Origin: Candidatus Latescibacterota bacterium | Lineage (GTDB): Bacteria > Latescibacterota > UBA2968 | Assembly (NCBI GenBank): GCA_965207885.1 | Contig: OZ242311.1 | Location: forward strand, 4,544,001-4,608,000 | Reading direction: 5' to 3' | DNA: 64,000 bases | Shown: positions 22,337 through 62,445 of the stretch, in pieces | How the letters are laid out: the number at the start of each line of letters is the position of its first letter | Position numbering within the stretch: the stretch's first letter is position 1 | Made by a program: the position numbers and the translations under genes | The notes under the pieces: generated by a model | Told to the model about the DNA's origin: nothing | Databases searched by the model: none | What the model saw: only the letters and a program-made list of their open reading frames with translations

Positions 22337-22729
22337 TCACGCCTTTCCCGGACGACCTATTTCGATGAGGTTGCCATCCGGGTCGTGTACAAAAACATAG
22401 CGCGTGCCGTCGTGTGGGCGCACGCCGGGACCGGAGGCAACGCGCACGCGTTCGCGGTCGAGCGAGGTGATGACGCGATCGAAGTCGGCGACTTCAAAGG
22501 CGATGTGGCGTCGCGAGGGACGGGGGTATTCTTCTGCGAGGATCAGGTGGATTTCGATGTCGCCACAGCGATACCAGGCACCAGCAAAGTCGTAATCTGG
22601 CCGGGGAATGGGTTGCAGCCCCAGGAGCTTTTCGTAAAATGCCGATGCGCGCTCGAGGTTACCTGTAACCAATGTGATATGGCTGACGCGCGTGATGCCC
22701 AGGCCAGCCGATTCCATGCGATTGGCCAC
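22337..22729 (-). CDS. VOC/glyoxalase family protein
   Basis: VSHITL, FYEKLLGL, HIAFEV and DPDGNLIEI motifs. Confidence 0.9.
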   Translation of the reverse strand: MANRMESAGLGITRVSHITLVTGNLERASAFYEKLLGLQPIPRPDYDFAGAWYRCGDIEIHLILAEEYPRPSRRHIAFEVADFDRVITSLDRERVRVASGPGVRPHDGTRYVFVHDPDGNLIEIGRPGKA

Positions 22730-22733
22730 CGGA

Positions 22734-23615
22734 TCAATTCTCCATCAATAAGGTTCTCATTTTACGCATGCGCGAGGGATGTTTGAGTGCTGCCAGGGCT
22801 TTGTCGCGTATTTGGCGCACGCGCTCTTTGGTCAGGTTGAGGATGTTGCCAATTTGCTCCAGTGTCATTGTTTCACCGCTGTTAATGCCAAAATAGAGGC
22901 GTAACACGCGGGCGTCGCGCGGAGCCAATGTGTTGAGTGCGGTGCGTATTTCCTCAGCCATAGAGCTTTCGAGCATGGCCTCTTCAGGGGTTTCCTGATC
23001 GTTGTCTGACAACATTTCCAGCAAGCTGGTGTCAGGGCCGTCTTCAAGGGGCATGTCGTATGAGATATGCCACCGCGAAGCGCTGAGGAGGTCTTGCACT
23101 TGTTTGGGTTGAAGTTCGGCCTGTGCAGCGATTTCTTCAACACGCGGTTCGCGCCCCAGCGATTGTTTGAGTTCTGAGGATATGCGTTCCAATTTGCTCA
23201 GGTGTTTGATTTTGTTGACGGGCAGTCGCACCATGCGGGCTTTTTCTGCCAATGCCGATAAGATGCCCTGCCGAATCCACCAGACTGCATACGTGGTGAA
23301 TTTGACGCCAACGGTTTCGTCATAGCGGGTGGCTGCGCGAACAAGACCCATGTTGCCTTCGGCGATGAGGTCTTCCAGGAGCAGGCCGCGTCCCTGATAT
23401 TCTTTGGCTATGGTAATGACGAATCGCAAATTGGATTCGATCATTTTATTGAGACTTTTGCGGTCTCCTTTGCGAATGCGCTTGGCCAGGTCAATTTCTT
23501 CTTGTGGCGTGAGCAATTCGCTATAGGCGATGTCTTTGAAATAGAGTTCCAGTGCGGAACTACTGCCTCCATTTGTTCCGTTTGAGGTCCTGTAACTCAT
23601 AAGTGCGGCAGACAT
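22734..23615 (-). CDS. RNA polymerase sigma-70 factor, short RpoD/SigA-like without region 1.1
   Basis: SNLRFVITIAKEY, KFTTYAVWWIRQ and TLEQIG...TKERVRQI. Confidence 0.92.
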   Translation of the reverse strand: MSAALMSYRTSNGTNGGSSSALELYFKDIAYSELLTPQEEIDLAKRIRKGDRKSLNKMIESNLRFVITIAKEYQGRGLLLEDLIAEGNMGLVRAATRYDETVGVKFTTYAVWWIRQGILSALAEKARMVRLPVNKIKHLSKLERISSELKQSLGREPRVEEIAAQAELQPKQVQDLLSASRWHISYDMPLEDGPDTSLLEMLSDNDQETPEEAMLESSMAEEIRTALNTLAPRDARVLRLYFGINSGETMTLEQIGNILNLTKERVRQIRDKALAALKHPSRMRKMRTLLMEN

Positions 23616-23923
23616 GTATTTCCCCCGTGACTGAGATATCGACTCTCTTGATCGAGTGTCTTGTGTTTCAACTCGTCAAAGGTTCACAATAAGTACTGTG
23701 ACACCTTCCGACTCCTGTATGGGAGAGAATCGGTTGTTGCCAGAATATACGGCGCATCGATCATGGGGATACCAATGGCCCGATTATATGACAACTTAGA
23801 TAAGGGGAGTGTCGCTTTGGGGAGTTGATCTGGATGGGGAAACGACCACGGGCCGCAGGGGAGCGGTGTGCTCGACCAAATCACAGTGTGTGGGCAAGTA
23901 TTGAGGGGAAAGATAATACTTGA
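23616..23923 (-). ncRNA. Putative structured 5' leader or sRNA with repeated UCCCC loop motifs
   Basis: Six UCCCC and one UCCC, mostly in hairpin loops, plus long-range helices whose G-U pairs work only on the minus strand. Confidence 0.55.
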
Positions 23924-23929
23924 GCAGAC

Positions 23930-23958
23930 AAGATAGCGGATTCAATTCTGTAATGCAA
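23930..23958 (-). promoter_or_regulatory. Putative sigma70 promoter of the sigma-factor leader
   Basis: TTGCAT-17 nt-TATCTT; a second candidate TTGACA-17 nt-TATTTT lies at 24068-24040. Confidence 0.55.
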
Positions 23959-24101
23959 CTATTTTTCTATGCCATTCTCCTGATATTTTGCAACGCAAAG
24001 CCATATTTTTAGATGAAATACTTATTGGCATATTGAGAGAAAATAATAAATAGAATTTCATTTGTCAATAAATAACTCTTGTTTAACGAGTTACAGGCTT
24101 G

Positions 24102-24620
24102 CTACTGGTCCTCGGCAGTAGAGGTGCCGTTGAGTTGTCGCTGGGCGAGGTCGCGGTCGAGCAAAAACAAACCATTGCCCTCTATGCCGACCAGCTTGAT
24201 CGTGTCGATTAATTCCCTGACAATGGCTTCTTCTTCGACCTGTTCGGCAATAAACCACTGGAGAAAGGTATGGGTGGCGTGGTCGCGTTCGGACAGGGCG
24301 AGATCGGCGATGTTGTAGATGCTTTGAGAGACTCTTTGCTCCTGGGCAAGGGAATCTTCAAATACTTCTAATGGGTTGTCCCAGCATTGTTTTGGGGTAT
24401 CAATGGCGCTAAAACGTATATCGGCCTCCCGGTCGTCGAGAAAATCGTATATCTTCATTCCATGGGTGAGTTCTTCCTGGGCTTGAACGCGCATCCAATG
24501 GGCAAAGCCATTGAGATTTTGCGTGAGAAAATACGCGGACATCGCCAGATAACTATAAGCCGAGTAATATTCCATATTGAGTTGCTCATTGAGCGCGGCG
24601 TTTATGTTTGTGTTAATCAT
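24102..24620 (-). CDS. ftnA: Non-heme ferritin
   Basis: LNEQLNMEYYSAYSY, EELTH and DHATHTFLQWFIAEQVEEE; AGGAGG RBS before ATG 24620. Confidence 0.92.
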   Translation of the reverse strand: MINTNINAALNEQLNMEYYSAYSYLAMSAYFLTQNLNGFAHWMRVQAQEELTHGMKIYDFLDDREADIRFSAIDTPKQCWDNPLEVFEDSLAQEQRVSQSIYNIADLALSERDHATHTFLQWFIAEQVEEEAIVRELIDTIKLVGIEGNGLFLLDRDLAQRQLNGTSTAEDQ

Positions 24621-24883
24621 GGTGTCCTCCTGTTGCGAGAGGGAGAAAAAAGGAGTATCCAAAAGGGGGGGGATAAGTATAAGAAAAATATGGATTTTGT
24701 CAACCTATTAAAATAACTGATTGATTATACTTTGGTTATAGAAGAAATTCCCAATGGTGTAGTGAATTTTTCTGTTGATTCTTTTTGAGAAATTGCGTAA
24801 AACTTTAGTAACTTCTAAACACGGAGCATTTGATTACCCCAGTGTGGCCCATAAGTCACCCAACAGGAGGTTTGTTTTTTGTT

Positions 24884-25366
24884 ATGATTCCCAAGAAGGT
24901 CCTCATGGCTTTGAACGAGCAACTCAATTTTGAGTTCCATTCGGCATTTCACTATCTCGCCATGGAGACGTATTTTCACGAGGTAAATCTGCACGGGTTT
25001 GCCCATTATATGCGCGAGCAATACAAAGAAGAACGGCAGCACGCGCTCAAGATTGTGGATTATATCAATGCGCGAAACTGTCGGGTCCTGCTCAAGCAGA
25101 TCGCCGAACCGCCTTCTGAGTGGGCATCACCTCTGGAGGTTTTTGAAGATGCGCATCAGCAGGAGCAGAAATCCAGTGGGATGATCAATGATCTGGTCGA
25201 TCTCTCACTGAATGAGCGCGACCATGCAACGGAGATTTTCTTGAAGTGGTTTATCGAGAAACAGGTAGAAGAGGAGGCGCAAATCAGCAGTATTGTGCAA
25301 AAGTTGAAGCTGGTGGGCGATGACGCTTATGGTCTGTTTTTACTGGATCGAGATATGGGGGGATAG
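24884..25366 (+). CDS. ftnA: Non-heme ferritin, second divergent paralog
   Basis: LNEQLNFEFHSAFHY, EERQH and DHATEIFLKWFIEKQVEEE; AGGAGG upstream. Confidence 0.9.
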   Translation: MIPKKVLMALNEQLNFEFHSAFHYLAMETYFHEVNLHGFAHYMREQYKEERQHALKIVDYINARNCRVLLKQIAEPPSEWASPLEVFEDAHQQEQKSSGMINDLVDLSLNERDHATEIFLKWFIEKQVEEEAQISSIVQKLKLVGDDAYGLFLLDRDMGG

Positions 25367-25612: not shown

Positions 25613-26395
25613 TTAGATGGGTACAATGAGTGGAAATTTTTTAACGGGATGGATAATTTGCTGTACGCGAATATCAAATGCATCTGAAACTACGTCTGGC
25701 GTCAATACCTGATTGGGAGCACCACTGGCCACTTGTTCGCCATTTTTCAACACATGTACCTCGTCGGCATATTGGGAAGCTAAGTTGAGGTCGTGCAACA
25801 CGCAGAGTACACCTGTTTCATTGCTGGCCCATTTTCGTGCCAGTTGCAATACCTGATGTTGATGCGATAAATCCAGGCTTGTCGTTGGTTCGTCCAGCAG
25901 CAGATATCGCCCTGCGGTGAGATGTTTGTCCCAAATTTGGGCCAGTACGCGTGCAAATTGCACCCGCTGTTGCTCTCCTCCCGATAGTGTTGGATAAACG
26001 CGCTGTTCCAGGTGCGCCACGCCTACCCATTTCAAAGCCTCCTGTGCAATTTCATAATCCCGCGCGCTTTCTATGCCTTTTACGTGTGGGAAGCGCCCCA
26101 TGAGCACCACGTCTAAAACGCGGAAGGGGAAAGTCAAAAAAGATTGCTGCGGCAAGATCGCGCGCTGTTTCGCACATTCAACAGGTGTTAAATCGGCAAT
26201 CGGACACCCATCTATCCTGACCGTTCCCTCAGAGGGGACCCACTCACCACACATCACTTTTACCAATGTGGATTTGCCCGCGCCATTTGGTCCGAGCACG
26301 GCTACAACTTTGCCCGGTGCGATCTGGATCGAAACGCGTTTGAGCAGATGGTGCCCATCTATTAGAACAGAAACCTGGCGCGCTTCAAACATCAA
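25613..26395 (-). CDS. hmuV: Heme ABC transporter ATPase
   Basis: GPNGAGKST, YPTLSGGEQQRVQFARVLAQ, LLLDEPT and VLHDLNLA. Confidence 0.9.
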   Translation of the reverse strand: MMFEARQVSVLIDGHHLLKRVSIQIAPGKVVAVLGPNGAGKSTLVKVMCGEWVPSEGTVRIDGCPIADLTPVECAKQRAILPQQSFLTFPFRVLDVVLMGRFPHVKGIESARDYEIAQEALKWVGVAHLEQRVYPTLSGGEQQRVQFARVLAQIWDKHLTAGRYLLLDEPTTSLDLSHQHQVLQLARKWASNETGVLCVLHDLNLASQYADEVHVLKNGEQVASGAPNQVLTPDVVSDAFDIRVQQIIHPVKKFPLIVPI

Positions 26396-27492
26396 AACAC
26401 CTGTCGGTTGCGATTTTGTAGTAATAAAAAGAGGAAAAAGGGTACGCCGATGACTGCTGTTACAATGCCTATGGGCAATTCGGCAGGTGCGACAAGCGTG
26501 CGTGCTACCAGATCAGCGGCCATCAATAGAGAAGCTCCCAGGAGTGCTGCCCCCGGGATTAAGTAGCGATGATCTGGCCCAATTGACAACCGCAGAAGGT
26601 GCGGCACCACCAGGCCGACAAATCCGATTATGCCCACCACAGAAACCGATGCACCCACAGCCAGTGCAGCCAGTGTCACCACTTCGCGCTTCATGCGTTC
26701 GATAGATACGCCCAGATGTCTGGCTTCGGCTTCGCCCAATAAAAAGATGTTGAGCGCGCGTCCATAGAGACCGAGCAAACAGACCGATATAATAATAAAA
26801 GGCGTTACTACGCTCACCGAGGTCCAGGTCGCGCCACCCATGTTGCCCATGCTCCAGAATGTGATATTGCGCAACTGGGCATCTGTTGCCACAAATGTCA
26901 ATAAACCCGTTAATGCACCGCTCAACGCATTGATGGCAATGCCGGCCAACAGCATTGTTGCCACAGCTACGCGTCCACTTGTCGCGGACAATTGATAGAC
27001 CAATAGTGTTGCAGCGACTCCACCGATAAATGCGGCAATGGGCAGTGTATAGTCGCCCAAAATCTCCGATAGGCCCTTCAGTACAGTCGCGCCCAGGACA
27101 ATTACCGATACCGCAGCTAATGCGGCGCCACTTGACACGCCGATCAAACCGGGGTCGGCCAATGGGTTGCGGAAAAGCCCCTGCATGGCAGCGCCTGATA
27201 CAGCCAATCCGGCTCCGACGAGCACATTCAACAGGACTCTCGGCAGCCGAATGGCGACGACAACGGCTTCCTGGTGCGATTGAAATGTTTGCTCAACAGA
27301 AAACCCCATTCGTTTTGCAAAGATCGACAAAACCTGTGCGGGTGTAACGGATACTGCGCCAATGCCCACCGAGGCCACTACCAGTACGCATAGCAATACG
27401 CACAGTGCCAGCAATATCAGAGAGGTTCGTTTTATTTGTAAGCGAGAAATGCGAATACCATCCCGTTGTAAAACTGTTGGTGCCGCGCTCAT
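26392..27492 (-). CDS. hmuU: Heme ABC transporter permease (FecCD family)
   Basis: IRLPRV, QGLFRNPLADPGLIGVSSGA and LGEAEARHLG. Confidence 0.88.
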   Translation of the reverse strand: MSAAPTVLQRDGIRISRLQIKRTSLILLALCVLLCVLVVASVGIGAVSVTPAQVLSIFAKRMGFSVEQTFQSHQEAVVVAIRLPRVLLNVLVGAGLAVSGAAMQGLFRNPLADPGLIGVSSGAALAAVSVIVLGATVLKGLSEILGDYTLPIAAFIGGVAATLLVYQLSATSGRVAVATMLLAGIAINALSGALTGLLTFVATDAQLRNITFWSMGNMGGATWTSVSVVTPFIIISVCLLGLYGRALNIFLLGEAEARHLGVSIERMKREVVTLAALAVGASVSVVGIIGFVGLVVPHLLRLSIGPDHRYLIPGAALLGASLLMAADLVARTLVAPAELPIGIVTAVIGVPFFLFLLLQNRNRQVF

Positions 27493-60449: not shown

Positions 60450-60526
60450 TGGTGGGCGCACAGGGACTCGAACCCCGGACCAACGGATTATGAGTCCGTC
60501 GCTCTAACCAACTGAGCTATGCGCCC
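60450..60526 (-). tRNA. tRNA with CAT anticodon, probably tRNA-Ile2 (lysidine); elongator Met not excluded
   Basis: GGGCGCATAGCTCAGTTGGTTAGAGC...CTCATAA...GGTTCGAGTCC...TGCGCCCACCA; cloverleaf with encoded CCA. Confidence 0.92.
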
Positions 60527-62387: not shown

Positions 62388-62445
62388 GTAAGGAACTCCC
62401 CGGGGAGAGGAGATGGAAGCTGTAAATAAGTGTTGTAGGCTAACT

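What the first reader, a model, noticed from the sequence alone, without database searches (positions are those of the whole stretch)
23616..23958. Sigma-factor leader RNA displaying seven C-rich (UCCCC) loops complementary to its own GGGGGA ribosome-binding site
Seen: a ~310-nt non-coding leader lies between a TTGCAT-17-TATCTT promoter and the sigma ATG. It has UCCCC six times and UCCC once within ~190 nt (plus-strand GGGGA at 23765, 23804, 23819, 23836, 23858, 23905; GGGA at 23721), where well under one 5-mer is expected by chance. Most sit in hairpin loops: CAAGUAUU/AAUACUUG, CCGC/GCGG, GUCG/CGAC, GACA/UGUC, CAUUGGU/AUCGAUG and CCGAUUC/GAGUCGG. Long-range helices UUGGUCGAG/CUCGAUCAA and CUGUGAUU/AGUCACGG close the domain right at the SD, which is GGGGGA. 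G-U pairs work only on the minus strand, supporting that strand as the RNA. Established: UCCC loops are SD-binding seeds in RNAIII, RsaE, LhrC and the iron-sparing sRNAs FsrA and IsrR. Inference: an undescribed riboregulator, either a cis switch for the sigma factor, a multivalent anti-SD sRNA or a protein sponge. It may be iron-linked given the adjacent ferritins; sucA and dnaG here also have GGGGA upstream of their starts.
Basis: partly seen in the sequence, partly recalled or inferred. Interest (0 to 1): 0.8.

Follow-up and report, generated by a model that had tools for sequence, protein, structure and literature searches.

The report
Sigma-factor leader RNA with UCCCC repeats
A long, conserved untranslated leader in front of an alternative sigma-factor gene of uncultured Latescibacterota carries several UCCCC motifs that match the gene's unusual GGGGGA ribosome-binding site. 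It is most likely a built-in, so far undescribed control on translation of that sigma factor.

Summary
Six UCCCC plus one UCCC lie on the minus strand at the stated coordinates, upstream of a 293-aa RpoS/RpoD-like sigma gene whose SD is GGGGGA. This is the densest UCCCC cluster in the 6.2-Mb genome. No Rfam family matches.

The leader is conserved in 20 of 20 genomes of the genus. In other genera of the same Latescibacterota order the sequence diverges, but the two features persist. GGGGGA is present at 50 of 52 orthologues. Their leaders hold 196 UCCCC against 3 GGGGA. UCCCC is enriched in hairpin loops whose stems differ or covary. GGGGA is not a usual SD here: AGGAG is, and the 16S tail is canonical.

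Best reading (about 0.5): a cis anti-SD leader that holds the sigma factor's translation off until an unknown signal releases it.

- Only four of six local hairpins are conserved.
- The long-range helices are unsupported.
- The TSS is unproven.
- The iron link is weak.

A second conserved UCCCC-rich RNA upstream of smc has an ordinary SD, which keeps a trans-acting factor or sRNA reading alive. The element is a new variant of a known kind.

The parts
23953..23958 (-). -35-like hexamer TTGCAT
   Evidence: Sequence. TTGC(A/G)T is kept in 20 of 20 genus genomes, and alignable homology among all of them begins about 45 nt upstream of it. Not listed by the consensus scan. TSS not mapped.
23930..23935 (-). 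-10-like hexamer TATCTT, 17 nt after the -35
   Evidence: Invariant in 20 of 20 genus genomes. Also invariant in the 8-sequence alignment that includes 4 loci of other genera (L039, L040, L041, L068).
23616..23923 (-). Predicted 5' leader of about 308 nt. It is non-coding, with C 30% and G 19%.
   Evidence: Indels among relatives are not multiples of three. RNA-library contigs are contiguous with the CDS. MFE z = -3.1.
23895..23922 (-). Hairpin H1, CAAGUAUU/AAUACUUG. Its loop carries UCCCC no. 1 (23905-23909).
   Evidence: All 8 pairs are invariant in 20 of 20 genomes. The loop varies (UCCCC, UCCC or UCCU).
23853..23866 (-). Hairpin H2, CCGC/GCGG, with loop UCCCCU (UCCCC no. 2, 23858-23862)
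   Evidence: Stem and loop invariant in 20 of 20.
23804..23840 (-). Linker with UCCCC no. 3 (23836-23840), no. 4 (23819-23823) and no. 5 (23804-23808)
Evidence: CCCC of no. 4 and no. 5 is invariant in 20 of 20 (the base before it varies in one genome each); no. 3 is degenerate in 7 of 20. RNAalifold pairs no. 4 with the SD.
23736..23795 (-). Two-tier hairpin H4: outer GUUGUCA/UGGCAAC and inner CAUUGGU/AUCGAUG. The loop carries UCCCC no. 6 (23765-23769).
   Evidence: Outer stem 100% paired, with 5 U-G to U-A changes. Inner stem 95.7% paired, with 1 double change and 3 pairs that vary on one side.
23708..23733 (-). Hairpin H5, CCGAUUC/GAGUCGG. The loop carries CUCUCCC (UCCC 23721-23724).
   Evidence: 95.9% of cells paired. 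The 5' arm can instead pair with GAGAGUCG at 23640-23647 (96.7% of cells). The 3' arm is deleted in 2 of 20 genomes.
23679..23707 (-). Hairpin H6, AAGGU...ACCUU, with a variable tip, followed by UUU
   Evidence: 88.4% paired, 2 double changes. Absent in the two deletion variants. No terminator-like site on this strand.
23640..23654 (-). SD-proximal hairpin H7, CGAU/GUCG, with a purine-rich loop
   Evidence: 97.4% paired, 1 double change. Alignable with the CGAC-AGGGAGA-GUCG hairpin of another genus group.
23621..23626 (-). Shine-Dalgarno GGGGGA, 5 nt before the ATG
   Evidence: Invariant in the genus. Present at 50 of 52 orthologues. Atypical for this genome. Predicted paired with P>=0.81 in 24 of 24 leaders.
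22734..23615 (-). Sigma-70 family gene, 293 aa, RpoS/RpoD-like (group 2 type)
   Evidence: Pfam regions 1.2, 2, 3 and 4. The best NCBIfam matches are RpoD and RpoS models, all below cut-off. Two roughly 50%-identical paralogues lie elsewhere in the genome.
24040..24068 (-). Second promoter-like site, TTGACA-17-TATTTT, upstream of the leader
   Evidence: Conserved in 7 of 11 aligned genus sequences and not in the 4 divergent ones. It could explain RNA contigs that reach 23989 and beyond.

Best explanation
This is a cis-acting translational control leader of a group-2 (RpoS-like) sigma-factor mRNA.

Transcription is inferred to start about 7 nt after TATCTT. It yields a leader of about 308 nt that is C-rich and G-poor and has no G-run except at the ribosome-binding site. 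The leader presents four to six UCCCC elements, some in stable hairpin loops and some in an open linker. Each is a perfect 5-bp complement of GGGGA within the SD GGGGGA.

The SD pairs with the 16S tail CCUCC only through a G-U wobble. One of the redundant cis UCCCC elements should therefore out-compete the ribosome and keep translation low by default. A signal not identified here would free the SD; candidates are temperature, a factor that occupies the UCCCC elements, or a refolding event such as the alternative pairing of CCGAUUCUC.

Shown: the motifs, their conservation, the atypical conserved SD, the hairpins, and the presence of the region in RNA libraries. Inferred: the TSS, the UCCCC-SD pairing in vivo, repression, and the existence of a releasing signal.
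For: 1. Statistics. Six UCCCC in 145 nt against 0.12 expected. 0 of 2000 shuffles reach this. It is the top cluster in the genome.
2. The SD is special.
   - The 16S 3' end is canonical GGAUCACCUCCUUUCU.
   - The enriched SD words are AGGAG (830 against 55), AAGGA and GGAGG. GGGGA scores 90 against 69.
   - Yet GGGGGA sits at the SD position in 50 of 52 orthologues of 62-99% identity, including 31 of the 33 from other genera with full upstream sequence.
3. Co-conservation.
   - The same 51 leaders hold 196 UCCCC against 3 GGGGA in 16,932 nt.
   - The two orthologues without GGGGGA have 0 and 1 UCCCC. They are one clade.
   - Two paralogous sigma genes in the same genome have neither feature.
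   - Among 905 candidate starts preceded by GGGGA in the genome, only this one has more than 3 UCCCC upstream.
4. RNA-level structure.
   - Seven conserved helices in the genus, with 5 double changes against 1.0 +/- 0.9 in shuffles.
   - In another genus group, a hairpin with a YCCCC loop has 3 covarying pairs (8 cells against 3.1 +/- 1.3, 0 of 500 shuffles).
   - Of 82 UCCCC in 23 leaders, 31 lie in predicted hairpin loops, 28 are otherwise unpaired and 23 are paired. The background is 14%, 29% and 57%.
5. Predicted SD occlusion.
   - The MFE and RNAalifold of two independent groups pair a UCCCC with the SD.
   - P(SD paired) is 0.81-1.00 in 24 of 24 leaders, and most of that pairing goes to YCCC motifs in 21 of 24.
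   - In 60 control genes the mean is 0.64, and 25% reach 0.8.
6. One lineage (L040) has an extended 14-bp match between a C-motif and SD plus spacer. This includes a U-A to C-G double change relative to L041.
7. RNA-library contigs join the leader to the CDS in 4 runs from 3 studies. No terminator-like site lies between them on this strand.
8. Hfq and CsrA domains were not found in the 97%-complete, single-contig genome. This fits chaperone-independent G-C pairing as reported for 6C and sX13 (PMC6486639 abstract; PMC3771888 passages).
Against: - No covariation can test the UCCCC-GGGGA pairing itself, because both sides are invariant.
- A swap test found no general co-evolution of SD flanks with motif flanks. 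Own-leader and foreign-leader duplex energies are both -16.3 kcal/mol on average over 20 leaders.
- One anti-SD copy would suffice for a cis switch. Multiplicity, and display in stable loops, is more typical of multivalent binding platforms.
- A second conserved UCCCC-rich RNA upstream of smc has an ordinary AGGAGG SD and no G-run partner. UCCCC therefore has a use that need not involve GGGGA in cis.
- High predicted SD pairing partly follows from composition. The control used upstream DNA that is mostly coding.
- Part of the motif excess reflects C-rich, G-poor composition, and 15 of 27 leaders are not individually significant against shuffles.
- The TSS is unproven, and contigs extend upstream of it.
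Confidence: 0.5

Rival explanations
1. Multivalent binding platform. The UCCCC elements, especially those held in hairpin loops, are sites for a trans-acting factor. This would be an oligomeric RNA-binding protein or a G-rich RNA, and its occupancy sets sigma translation or mRNA stability. The same factor would act on the smc-upstream RNA, so together they form a small post-transcriptional regulon or sponge pair.
For: - Copy number of 4-6 and loop display resemble sponge or platform RNAs.
- Motif identity is conserved while stems and spacing drift between genera.
- A second UCCCC-rich 5' RNA lies upstream of smc with a canonical SD. It is conserved in 20 of 20 genus genomes. It has 2-4 UCCCC in all 15 genomes of genus g6 examined, and 1-3 in the 10 genomes of g7, g8, g10, g11 and g3 examined, where 8 of 10 have at least 2.
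- The swap test shows that only the core motif is constrained, not the SD flanks.
Against: - No candidate protein or G-rich partner RNA was found.
- The strand-specific scans found no non-coding cluster that would read as GGGGA on a transcript. The few non-coding clusters lie on the minus strand: the sigma leader, the smc RNA, a tandem repeat and three weak ones.
- This reading does not by itself explain why the SD must be GGGGGA in 50 of 52 orthologues.
- Genera g9 and g4 have strong sigma leaders (L039, L040, L041, L068: 4-6 UCCCC) but 0-1 UCCCC upstream of smc. The two RNAs are therefore not obligatorily linked.
Confidence: 0.25
2. Rho-dependent attenuator. The C-rich, G-poor leader is a rut region. 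Rho terminates in the leader unless translation or another event prevents it, as reported for the E. coli rpoS leader.
For: - Leader composition is C 30% and G 19%. It ranges over C 26-34% and G 13-28% in 27 orthologous leaders.
- A Rho gene is present.
- A long leader before a stress-type sigma gene is the context in which sRNA-controlled Rho termination is discussed (PMC6582626, search listing only).
Against: - Rut sites need no fixed pentamer and are largely unstructured.
- Here an exact UCCCC is conserved beyond composition (0 of 2000 shuffles).
- The motif is often held in conserved or covarying hairpins.
- This reading does not explain the conserved GGGGGA SD.
Confidence: 0.1
3. Dual-function or 5'-UTR-derived sRNA. 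The C-rich 5' domain is released or acts in trans on other mRNAs with G-rich ribosome-binding sites, such as sucA and dnaG in this window. It would work like the C-rich-loop sRNAs 6C, sX13 and RsaE.
For: - C-rich loops that target G-rich RBS motifs are an established sRNA mode (PMC6486639 abstract; PMC3771888 passages).
- sucA and dnaG have GGGGA 7-9 nt before their ATG.
- The 5' domain is the most conserved part. Two species delete the middle of the leader but keep the 5' domain.
Against: - No terminator-like site follows the domain.
- RNA contigs are continuous into the CDS.
- GGGGA is not enriched at start sites.
- The element is single-copy and always attached to the sigma gene.
Confidence: 0.08
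4. DNA-level sites (GGGGA boxes for a DNA-binding regulator downstream of the promoter), or plain compositional chance.
For: The pentamers are direct repeats and all lie on one strand, close to a promoter.
Against: - Extreme strand bias is kept across genera (196 against 3).
- The motifs lie in loops of hairpins with G-U pairs and covariation.
- Spacing from the promoter is not fixed.
- 0 of 2000 shuffles reach the observed count.
Confidence: 0.02

Closest known systems
rpoS mRNA leader of Escherichia coli (the mechanism is recalled; PMC6537650 and PMC6582626 were seen as search listings only)
   Same: It is a long 5' leader of a non-essential RpoS/RpoD-like sigma gene, and its upstream part is predicted to pair with and hide the ribosome-binding site. 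Control of a global regulator is therefore placed at translation.
   Different: There is no sequence or Rfam relationship. Here the inhibitory element is a short pentamer repeated 4-6 times, partly in hairpin loops, and it matches an atypical GGGGGA SD. Hfq was not found, and no activating sRNA is known.
C-rich-loop sRNAs: 6C of Actinobacteria (PMC6486639, abstract read) and sX13 of Xanthomonas (PMC3771888, passages read). RsaE/RoxS, RNAIII and RepG are recalled from knowledge, though the sX13 paper names S. aureus and H. pylori analogues.
   Same: CCCC/UCCC(C) motifs are displayed in apical loops and are complementary to G-runs at or near ribosome-binding sites. Pairing is G-C-rich and is reported to be independent of Hfq. 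sX13 loop 3 carries UCCCCCU, and G-rich motifs at RBS positions act as translational enhancers there.
   Different: Those are free-standing trans-acting sRNAs with their own terminators and many targets. This element is physically part of one mRNA: contigs are continuous with the CDS and no terminator-like site follows it. It is single-copy, and its only evident partner is its own SD. No Rfam model scored, even at E<=10.
Multivalent sponge/platform RNAs such as CsrB/RsmZ with repeated GGA loops (recalled)
   Same: A short motif is repeated several times and is preferentially exposed in hairpin loops. Motif identity is conserved while the scaffold drifts.
   Different: The motif is UCCCC, not GGA. 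No CsrA domain is found in the genome. The RNA is a leader rather than a separate sRNA, and no binding protein is known.
Rho-dependent leader attenuators / rut sites (recalled)
   Same: A C-rich, G-poor leader, with Rho present.
   Different: An exact pentamer and conserved hairpins are not properties of rut sites.

Membership tests
Any Rfam 15 family | Match to a curated covariance model at its gathering score | tested here: not met
   - The only hit in the 64-kb window is a tRNA at 60453-60526.
- The region 23500-24150 at E<=10 gave four chance-level hits (15.7-18.4 bits against cut-offs of 43-111). All lie at 23925-24125, at or upstream of the proposed promoter, and none lies in the UCCCC part.
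- There were 0 hits in 14 orthologous loci.
C-rich-loop trans-acting sRNAs (6C, sX13, RsaE type) | C-rich (CCCC/UCCC) motifs exposed in hairpin loops | tested here: met
   - H1, H2 and H4 loops carry UCCCC and the H5 loop carries UCCC, with conserved stems.
- 31 of 82 motifs in 23 leaders lie in predicted hairpin loops, against 14% background.
C-rich-loop trans-acting sRNAs (6C, sX13, RsaE type) | Independent small transcript with its own terminator | tested here: not met
   - No terminator-like site on the minus strand between 23616 and 23923.
- RNA-library contigs run from the leader into the CDS.
- Contigs cannot exclude an additional processed species.
C-rich-loop trans-acting sRNAs (6C, sX13, RsaE type) | Regulates several mRNAs with G-rich RBS motifs in trans | not testable with these tools
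   - The only indirect evidence is that GGGGA is not enriched at starts (90 against 69).
- sucA and dnaG carry it.
rpoS-type inhibitory leader | Long 5' UTR on a group-2/stress-type sigma gene | tested here: inconclusive
   - The sigma domains are present.
- The leader length of about 308 nt rests on a conserved but unmapped promoter.
- Contigs extend further upstream.
rpoS-type inhibitory leader | SD sequestered by pairing with an upstream leader segment | tested here: inconclusive
   - This is predicted in the MFE, in two RNAalifold runs, and by pairing probabilities of at least 0.81 in 24 of 24 leaders.
- Both sides are invariant, so there is no covariation, and no probing data exist.
rpoS-type inhibitory leader | Opened by Hfq-dependent sRNAs | tested here: not met
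   The Hfq Pfam domain was not found in the 97%-complete, single-contig genome. Activating sRNAs could not be searched for.
Riboswitch | Ligand-binding core with conserved nucleotides and architecture across distant hosts | tested here: not met
   Outside the pentamers, the SD and one SD-proximal hairpin, the leaders of different genera do not align. blastn found it in 0 of 20 genomes of other genera.
Rho-dependent attenuator (rut) | Extended C-rich, G-poor, largely unstructured RNA; Rho present | tested here: inconclusive
   The composition criterion is met and Rho is present. However, much of the region is in conserved hairpins. Termination is not testable here.
CsrA/RsmA sponge or target | Repeated GGA in loops, and a CsrA protein | tested here: not met
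   The repeated motif is UCCCC. The leaders are depleted of G-runs. No CsrA domain was found.
RNA thermometer (ROSE / fourU type, recalled) | SD held by weak, U-rich or non-canonical pairs that melt at mild heat | tested here: not met
   The candidate pairing is four G-C pairs plus one A-U (sequence). A temperature response as such was not tested.

The most novel reading that the evidence does not exclude
Members of this Latescibacterota order use UCCCC as a dedicated post-transcriptional code. A so far unknown factor, either a multimeric RNA-binding protein or a G-rich RNA, reads UCCCC elements displayed on at least two conserved 5' RNAs: the sigma-factor leader and the smc-upstream RNA. In the sigma leader the same elements double as redundant anti-SD sequences. 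Occupancy by the factor would then directly convert into release of an SD that evolved to GGGGGA for this purpose. This would be a protein- or RNA-titrated, multivalent cis anti-SD switch with no described counterpart.
Probability: 0.2. Interest if true: 0.8.

Novelty: new variant of a known kind. Interest (0 to 1): 0.6.

Why it matters
Latescibacterota have no cultured, genetically studied member, so nothing is known about how they regulate genes after transcription.

This element gives a concrete, testable case. A global regulator (an RpoS-like sigma factor) has a ribosome-binding site that departs from the genome's norm and stays complementary to a repeated leader motif across at least 11 genera.

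If the cis anti-SD reading is right, the C-rich-loop/G-rich-RBS pairing known from trans-acting sRNAs of Firmicutes, Actinobacteria and Xanthomonas has also been built into an mRNA in multiple copies. If the platform reading is right, an unknown UCCCC-binding factor awaits discovery.

The leader and the smc-upstream RNA are also two candidate new RNA families for Rfam.

Tried and rejected
- **Rfam.** Three searches gave nothing relevant.
Not conserved.
No better than shuffled partners. My first structure string was unbalanced and was corrected.
- **Alternative distal helix CGAUUCUC/GAGAGUCG.** It pairs in 96.7% of cells, including the two deletion variants, but shows no double change. It remains only an idea.
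- **SD-flank against motif-flank co-evolution.** Negative overall.
- **RNA evidence.**
  - Only assembled contigs were available.
  - They show the leader joined to the CDS, and in some runs joined to upstream DNA as far as the ferritin gene.
  - They cannot give a TSS, a 3' end, the strand or abundance, and DNA carry-over is possible.
  - Stretches without cover in runs X5 and X6 mean nothing.
- **Genome-wide search for further UCCCC clusters.**
  - 154 clusters have at least 3 motifs per 120 nt.
  - 6 of them are non-coding by an open-frame proxy, about what the 4.3% non-coding fraction predicts.
  - There is therefore no general enrichment. Only the sigma and smc RNAs are conserved cases I checked.
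- **Co-occurrence of the sigma-leader and smc-RNA motifs across genera.** Not strict.
- **Hfq and CsrA.** Not found.
- **Literature.**
  - The search 'Latescibacteria' + 'sigma factor' + 'UTR' required 2 of 3 terms. None of the 10 papers listed contains the word Latescibacteria.
  - The search 'C-rich loops' + 'Shine-Dalgarno' + 'sRNA' + 'G-rich' returned only 6C/B11 papers.
  - I found no description of this leader in those searches, which cover open-access text only.
- **Not attempted.** No covariance model was built and no metagenome scan was run.
Full report
**What is there**

The window belongs to a single-contig genome of 6.23 Mb and 51% G+C. Its nearest public relatives are titled Candidatus Latescibacterota MAGs.

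On the minus strand, a 293-aa sigma-70 family gene (22734-23615) has regions 1.2, 2, 3 and 4. Its best NCBIfam matches are RpoD and RpoS models, all below their cut-offs. I therefore treat it as a group-2, RpoS-like sigma factor. Two paralogues of about 50% identity lie elsewhere in the genome.

Upstream of the gene lie, in order:
- GGGGGA at 23621-23626, 5 nt before the ATG.
- UCCC at 23721-23724.
- Six UCCCC at 23765, 23804, 23819, 23836, 23858 and 23905.
- TATCTT at 23930-23935.
- TTGCAT at 23953-23958, with a 17-nt spacer between the two hexamers.

**Is it more than chance?**

The window-wide rate gives 0.12 UCCCC expected in 145 nt. Poisson P(>=6) is 3e-9, or about 3e-6 after correcting for all windows.

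The leader is C-rich (30% C, 19% G), so composition matters. Dinucleotide shuffles of the 290-nt leader average 1.05 motifs, reach at most 5, and reach 6 in 0 of 2000 trials.

Genome-wide this is the densest strand-specific cluster. Of the 34 clusters with at least 4 motifs per 150 nt, only three are outside long open frames: this one, one upstream of smc, and a tandem repeat.

The minus strand folds better than its shuffles (z = -3.1). The plus strand does not (z = -0.8).

**Conservation within the genus**

blastn finds the leader once in each of 20 of 20 same-genus genomes, at 72-97% identity. It finds it in 0 of 20 genomes of other genera in that sample.

In the 20-sequence alignment:
- The -35 and -10 hexamers, hairpins H1 and H2, the CCCC of elements no. 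2, 4, 5 and 6, the outer H4 stem, and CACGGGGGAAA are invariant or nearly so.
- Indels of 1, 2, 5 and 7-10 nt rule out a coding frame.
- Two species delete about 84 nt, covering the 3' half of H5 through H6. They keep the C-rich 5' domain and the SD-proximal part.

Alignable homology among all genus members, including four divergent species with unrelated upstream DNA, begins about 45 nt before TTGC(A/G)T. That fits a promoter there.

A second promoter-like site, TTGACA-17-TATTTT (24068-24040), is kept only in the closer species.

**Structure**

I counted a hand-built structure on the genus alignment.
- H1, H2, H4 outer, H4 inner, H5, H6 and H7 pair in 88-100% of cells.
- Five pairs show changes on both sides, against 1.0 +/- 0.9 in shuffles (0 of 500 shuffles reach this).

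GUCG/CGAC pairs in 56% of cells. GACA/UGUC keeps 3 of 4 pairs and clashes with H4 outer.

They are neither supported nor excluded.

In my model UCCCC no. 1, 2 and 6 and the UCCC sit in conserved hairpin loops. No. 3, 4 and 5 sit in a linker.

The 5' arm of H5 can alternatively pair with GAGAGUCG next to the SD (96.7% of cells, including both deletion variants). This would be a possible switch, but it lacks covariation.

**Beyond the genus**

Using the sigma protein I fetched 52 orthologous loci of 62-99% identity. Results:
- GGGGGA stands at the SD position in 50 of 52.
- In the 51 loci with at least 300 nt upstream, the leaders hold 196 UCCCC and 3 GGGGA in 16,932 nt.
- At the genome-wide rate of about 0.00094 per nt and strand, roughly 16 of each would be expected.
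- Among the 33 loci from other genera, 31 have the SD, 27 have at least 2 UCCCC, and 19 have at least 3.
- The two loci without GGGGGA (L069 and L070, one clade) have a GAGG-type SD and 0 and 1 UCCCC.

Controls lack the pattern. Loci of 38-42% identity from other phyla lack it: none of the 8 read has both GGGGGA at the SD position and UCCCC repeats upstream. One of them, L074, has GGGGGA before an in-frame internal ATG. The two paralogous sigma genes of this genome also lack it.

Against shuffles of each leader, 12 of 27 leaders reach their observed count in at most 3 of 300 shuffles. The other 15 are not individually significant.

The sequences between the motifs do not align across genus groups, yet the same loop recurs on different stems. 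Examples are GCUUAU-UCCCC-AUAAGU, GAUCU-UCCCC-AAGAUC and GGUU-CCCC-UGAUC.

Of 82 UCCCC in 23 leaders, 31 lie in predicted hairpin loops, 28 are otherwise unpaired and 23 are paired. The background is 14%, 29% and 57%.

In a 10-sequence alignment of another genus group, a hairpin with a YCCCC loop has three covarying pairs. Together with a second CCCC-loop hairpin, it gives 8 double-changed cells against 3.1 +/- 1.3 (0 of 500 shuffles).

**Why the SD matters**

The 16S rRNA ends in the canonical GGAUCACCUCCUUUCU. The words enriched before start codons are AGGAG (830 against 55), AAGGA and GGAGG. GGGGA is at background (90 against 69 among 5488 starts).

GGGGGA can pair with CCUCC only through a central G-U. 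It pairs perfectly with UCCCC.

Among 905 candidate starts preceded by GGGGA in the genome, only the sigma gene has more than 3 UCCCC within 335 nt upstream.

The MFE pairs a UCCCC with the SD, and so do two independent RNAalifold runs. The predicted probability that the SD is paired is 0.81-1.00 in 24 of 24 leaders, mostly to YCCC motifs in 21 of 24. In 60 control genes with ordinary SDs the mean is 0.64, and 25% reach 0.8. This control is imperfect because its upstream sequence is mostly coding.

**Evidence against a simple cis model**

- The UCCCC-GGGGA pairs never vary, so covariation cannot test them.
- Swapping SD windows among 20 leaders gives the same mean duplex energy for own and foreign pairs (-16.3 kcal/mol). 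Only the core is matched, except in L040, which has a 14-bp match including a U-A to C-G double change relative to L041.
- One anti-SD would be enough; there are four to six.
- A second conserved UCCCC-rich 5' RNA lies upstream of smc (G000 4922679-4923009, minus strand).
  - It has an invariant TTGACG-17-TATTAT promoter and three to four UCCCC within about 90 nt.
  - Its SD is an ordinary AGGAGG, and it has no G-run partner.
  - It is conserved in 20 of 20 genus genomes.
  - Upstream of smc in other genera, all 15 genomes of g6 examined have 2-4 UCCCC, including a 10-bp hairpin with loop AUUCCCC. The 10 genomes of g7, g8, g10, g11 and g3 examined have 1-3, and 8 of the 10 have at least 2. The six of g9, g4, g5 and g2 have 0-1.
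  - UCCCC therefore has some use that does not need GGGGA in cis.
  - Because g9 and g4 have strong sigma leaders without it, the two RNAs are not obligatorily coupled.

**Transcription**

Assembled contigs from four RNA libraries (three studies, labelled sponge metagenome) match at 90-99% identity.
- X1 has one contig covering 22518-24748.
- X3 has one covering 22546-24096.
- X5 covers 23391-23989 in three pieces.
- X6 covers 23308-23795 and 23820-24157.

The leader is thus present and joined to the CDS, and some RNA or DNA extends upstream of the proposed TSS towards the ferritin gene. Contigs cannot show ends, strand or level, and DNA carry-over is possible. The TSS and any processed species remain open. 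No terminator-like site lies on this strand within the leader.

**Trans factors and context**

Rho is present. Hfq and CsrA domains were not found in this 97%-complete genome.

The ferritin neighbour is not a constant feature. I examined the upstream gene in 12 loci: 11 from other genera, plus L036, a divergent species of the window's own genus. It is a sigma-54 activator in 6, a ferritin in 1, an IS200-type transposase in 1, and other or unknown in 4. The iron idea therefore has little support.

sucA and dnaG do carry GGGGA before their starts.

**Comparison and verdict**

Functionally the closest case is the rpoS leader of E. coli (mechanism recalled): a long leader occluding the RBS of a stress sigma factor.

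In chemistry the closest are the C-rich-loop sRNAs 6C (PMC6486639, abstract) and sX13 (PMC3771888, passages). Their CCCC loops bind G-rich RBS motifs without Hfq.

This element is not a member of either group. It matches no Rfam model, shows no independent terminator, and Hfq was not found.

I rank the readings as follows:
- cis anti-SD translational control, about 0.5
- multivalent platform for an unknown factor, about 0.25
- Rho attenuation, about 0.1
- trans-acting 5' domain, about 0.08

It is a real, conserved and undescribed RNA element: a new variant of a known kind.

Noticed in passing
G000:C1:4922679-4923009 (minus strand; locus L101:1680-2010; about 315 kb from the window): A second conserved UCCCC-rich 5' RNA lies upstream of smc. 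It has an invariant TTGACG-17-TATTAT promoter, 3-4 UCCCC in the first ~90 nt, a conserved U-run, and then a canonical AGGAGG SD and a TTG start. It is conserved in 20 of 20 genus genomes. Upstream of smc in other genera, 2-4 UCCCC occur in all 15 g6 genomes examined and 1-3 in the 10 genomes of g7, g8, g10, g11 and g3; 0-1 occur in the six genomes of g9, g4, g5 and g2. It may be a leader or a free-standing C-rich sRNA.
   Followed up: partly
L160, L168, L171 (smc upstream regions, genus g6): In 3 of the 15 g6 genomes the smc SD reads GGGGG instead of GGAGG.
   Followed up: no
window 24040-24068 (-): A better consensus promoter, TTGACA-17-TATTTT, lies about 110 nt upstream of the proposed one, in an AT-rich spacer after the ferritin stop. 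It is conserved only in the closer species. The leader may therefore have two promoters or ferritin read-through.
   Followed up: partly
L016 and L017 (genomes G002 and G013), alignment A1 columns 300-383: Two species carry an ~84-nt deletion that removes the 3' arm of H5 and all of H6. This joins CCGAUUCU directly to the SD-proximal GAGAGUCG, with which it can pair. It is a natural minimal version of the leader.
   Followed up: partly
L039, L040, L041, L068 (upstream of the sigma gene, other genera): A perfect inverted repeat, (C)ATTTGAT-N5-7-ATCAAAT(G), overlaps the -35 hexamer and spacer of the TTGATT-17-TATCTT promoter. It looks like an operator for a DNA-binding repressor and is absent from the window's genus.
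   Followed up: no
L045, L051, L052, L054 and partly L053 (sigma leaders, genus g6): A shared segment of about 150 nt, beginning ...CCCTTAGAAGCTGTTTTAAAATCCCC..., replaces part of the leader in some species. It looks like an inserted repeat element and lowers the UCCCC count to 1-2.
   Followed up: no
window 62397-62406: Just upstream of dnaG the sequence CTCCCCGGGGAG is a perfect palindrome. The GGGGA before that gene's start can therefore be sequestered by an adjacent UCCCC.
   Followed up: no
G000:C1:2000368-2000457 (-): An intergenic tandem repeat of ~20-nt units ending in ...GAAC/AAGCTCCCCTGTATCCG... accounts for one of the three non-coding UCCCC clusters.
   Followed up: no
G000:C1:4501269-4501291 (-), 5987401-5987479 (-), 219772-219875 (-): Three further non-coding sites have 3 UCCCC each, one with three copies in 23 nt. 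Their conservation and neighbouring genes were not examined.
   Followed up: no
window 24102-24662 (-), 24830-25366 (+), 25613-27492 (-): Two divergently arranged ferritin-like genes lie next to an ABC ATPase and a FecCD-type permease. This is an iron-related neighbourhood directly upstream of the sigma locus. A ferritin also precedes the sigma gene in one g6 locus, L042.
   Followed up: partly
L072:1180-1444: This is a distant orthologue (62% identity). It keeps GGGGGA at the SD, and it also has a local hairpin in which UCCCC pairs with a GGGGA 5 nt downstream (UCCCCGUGACGGGGA).
   Followed up: no
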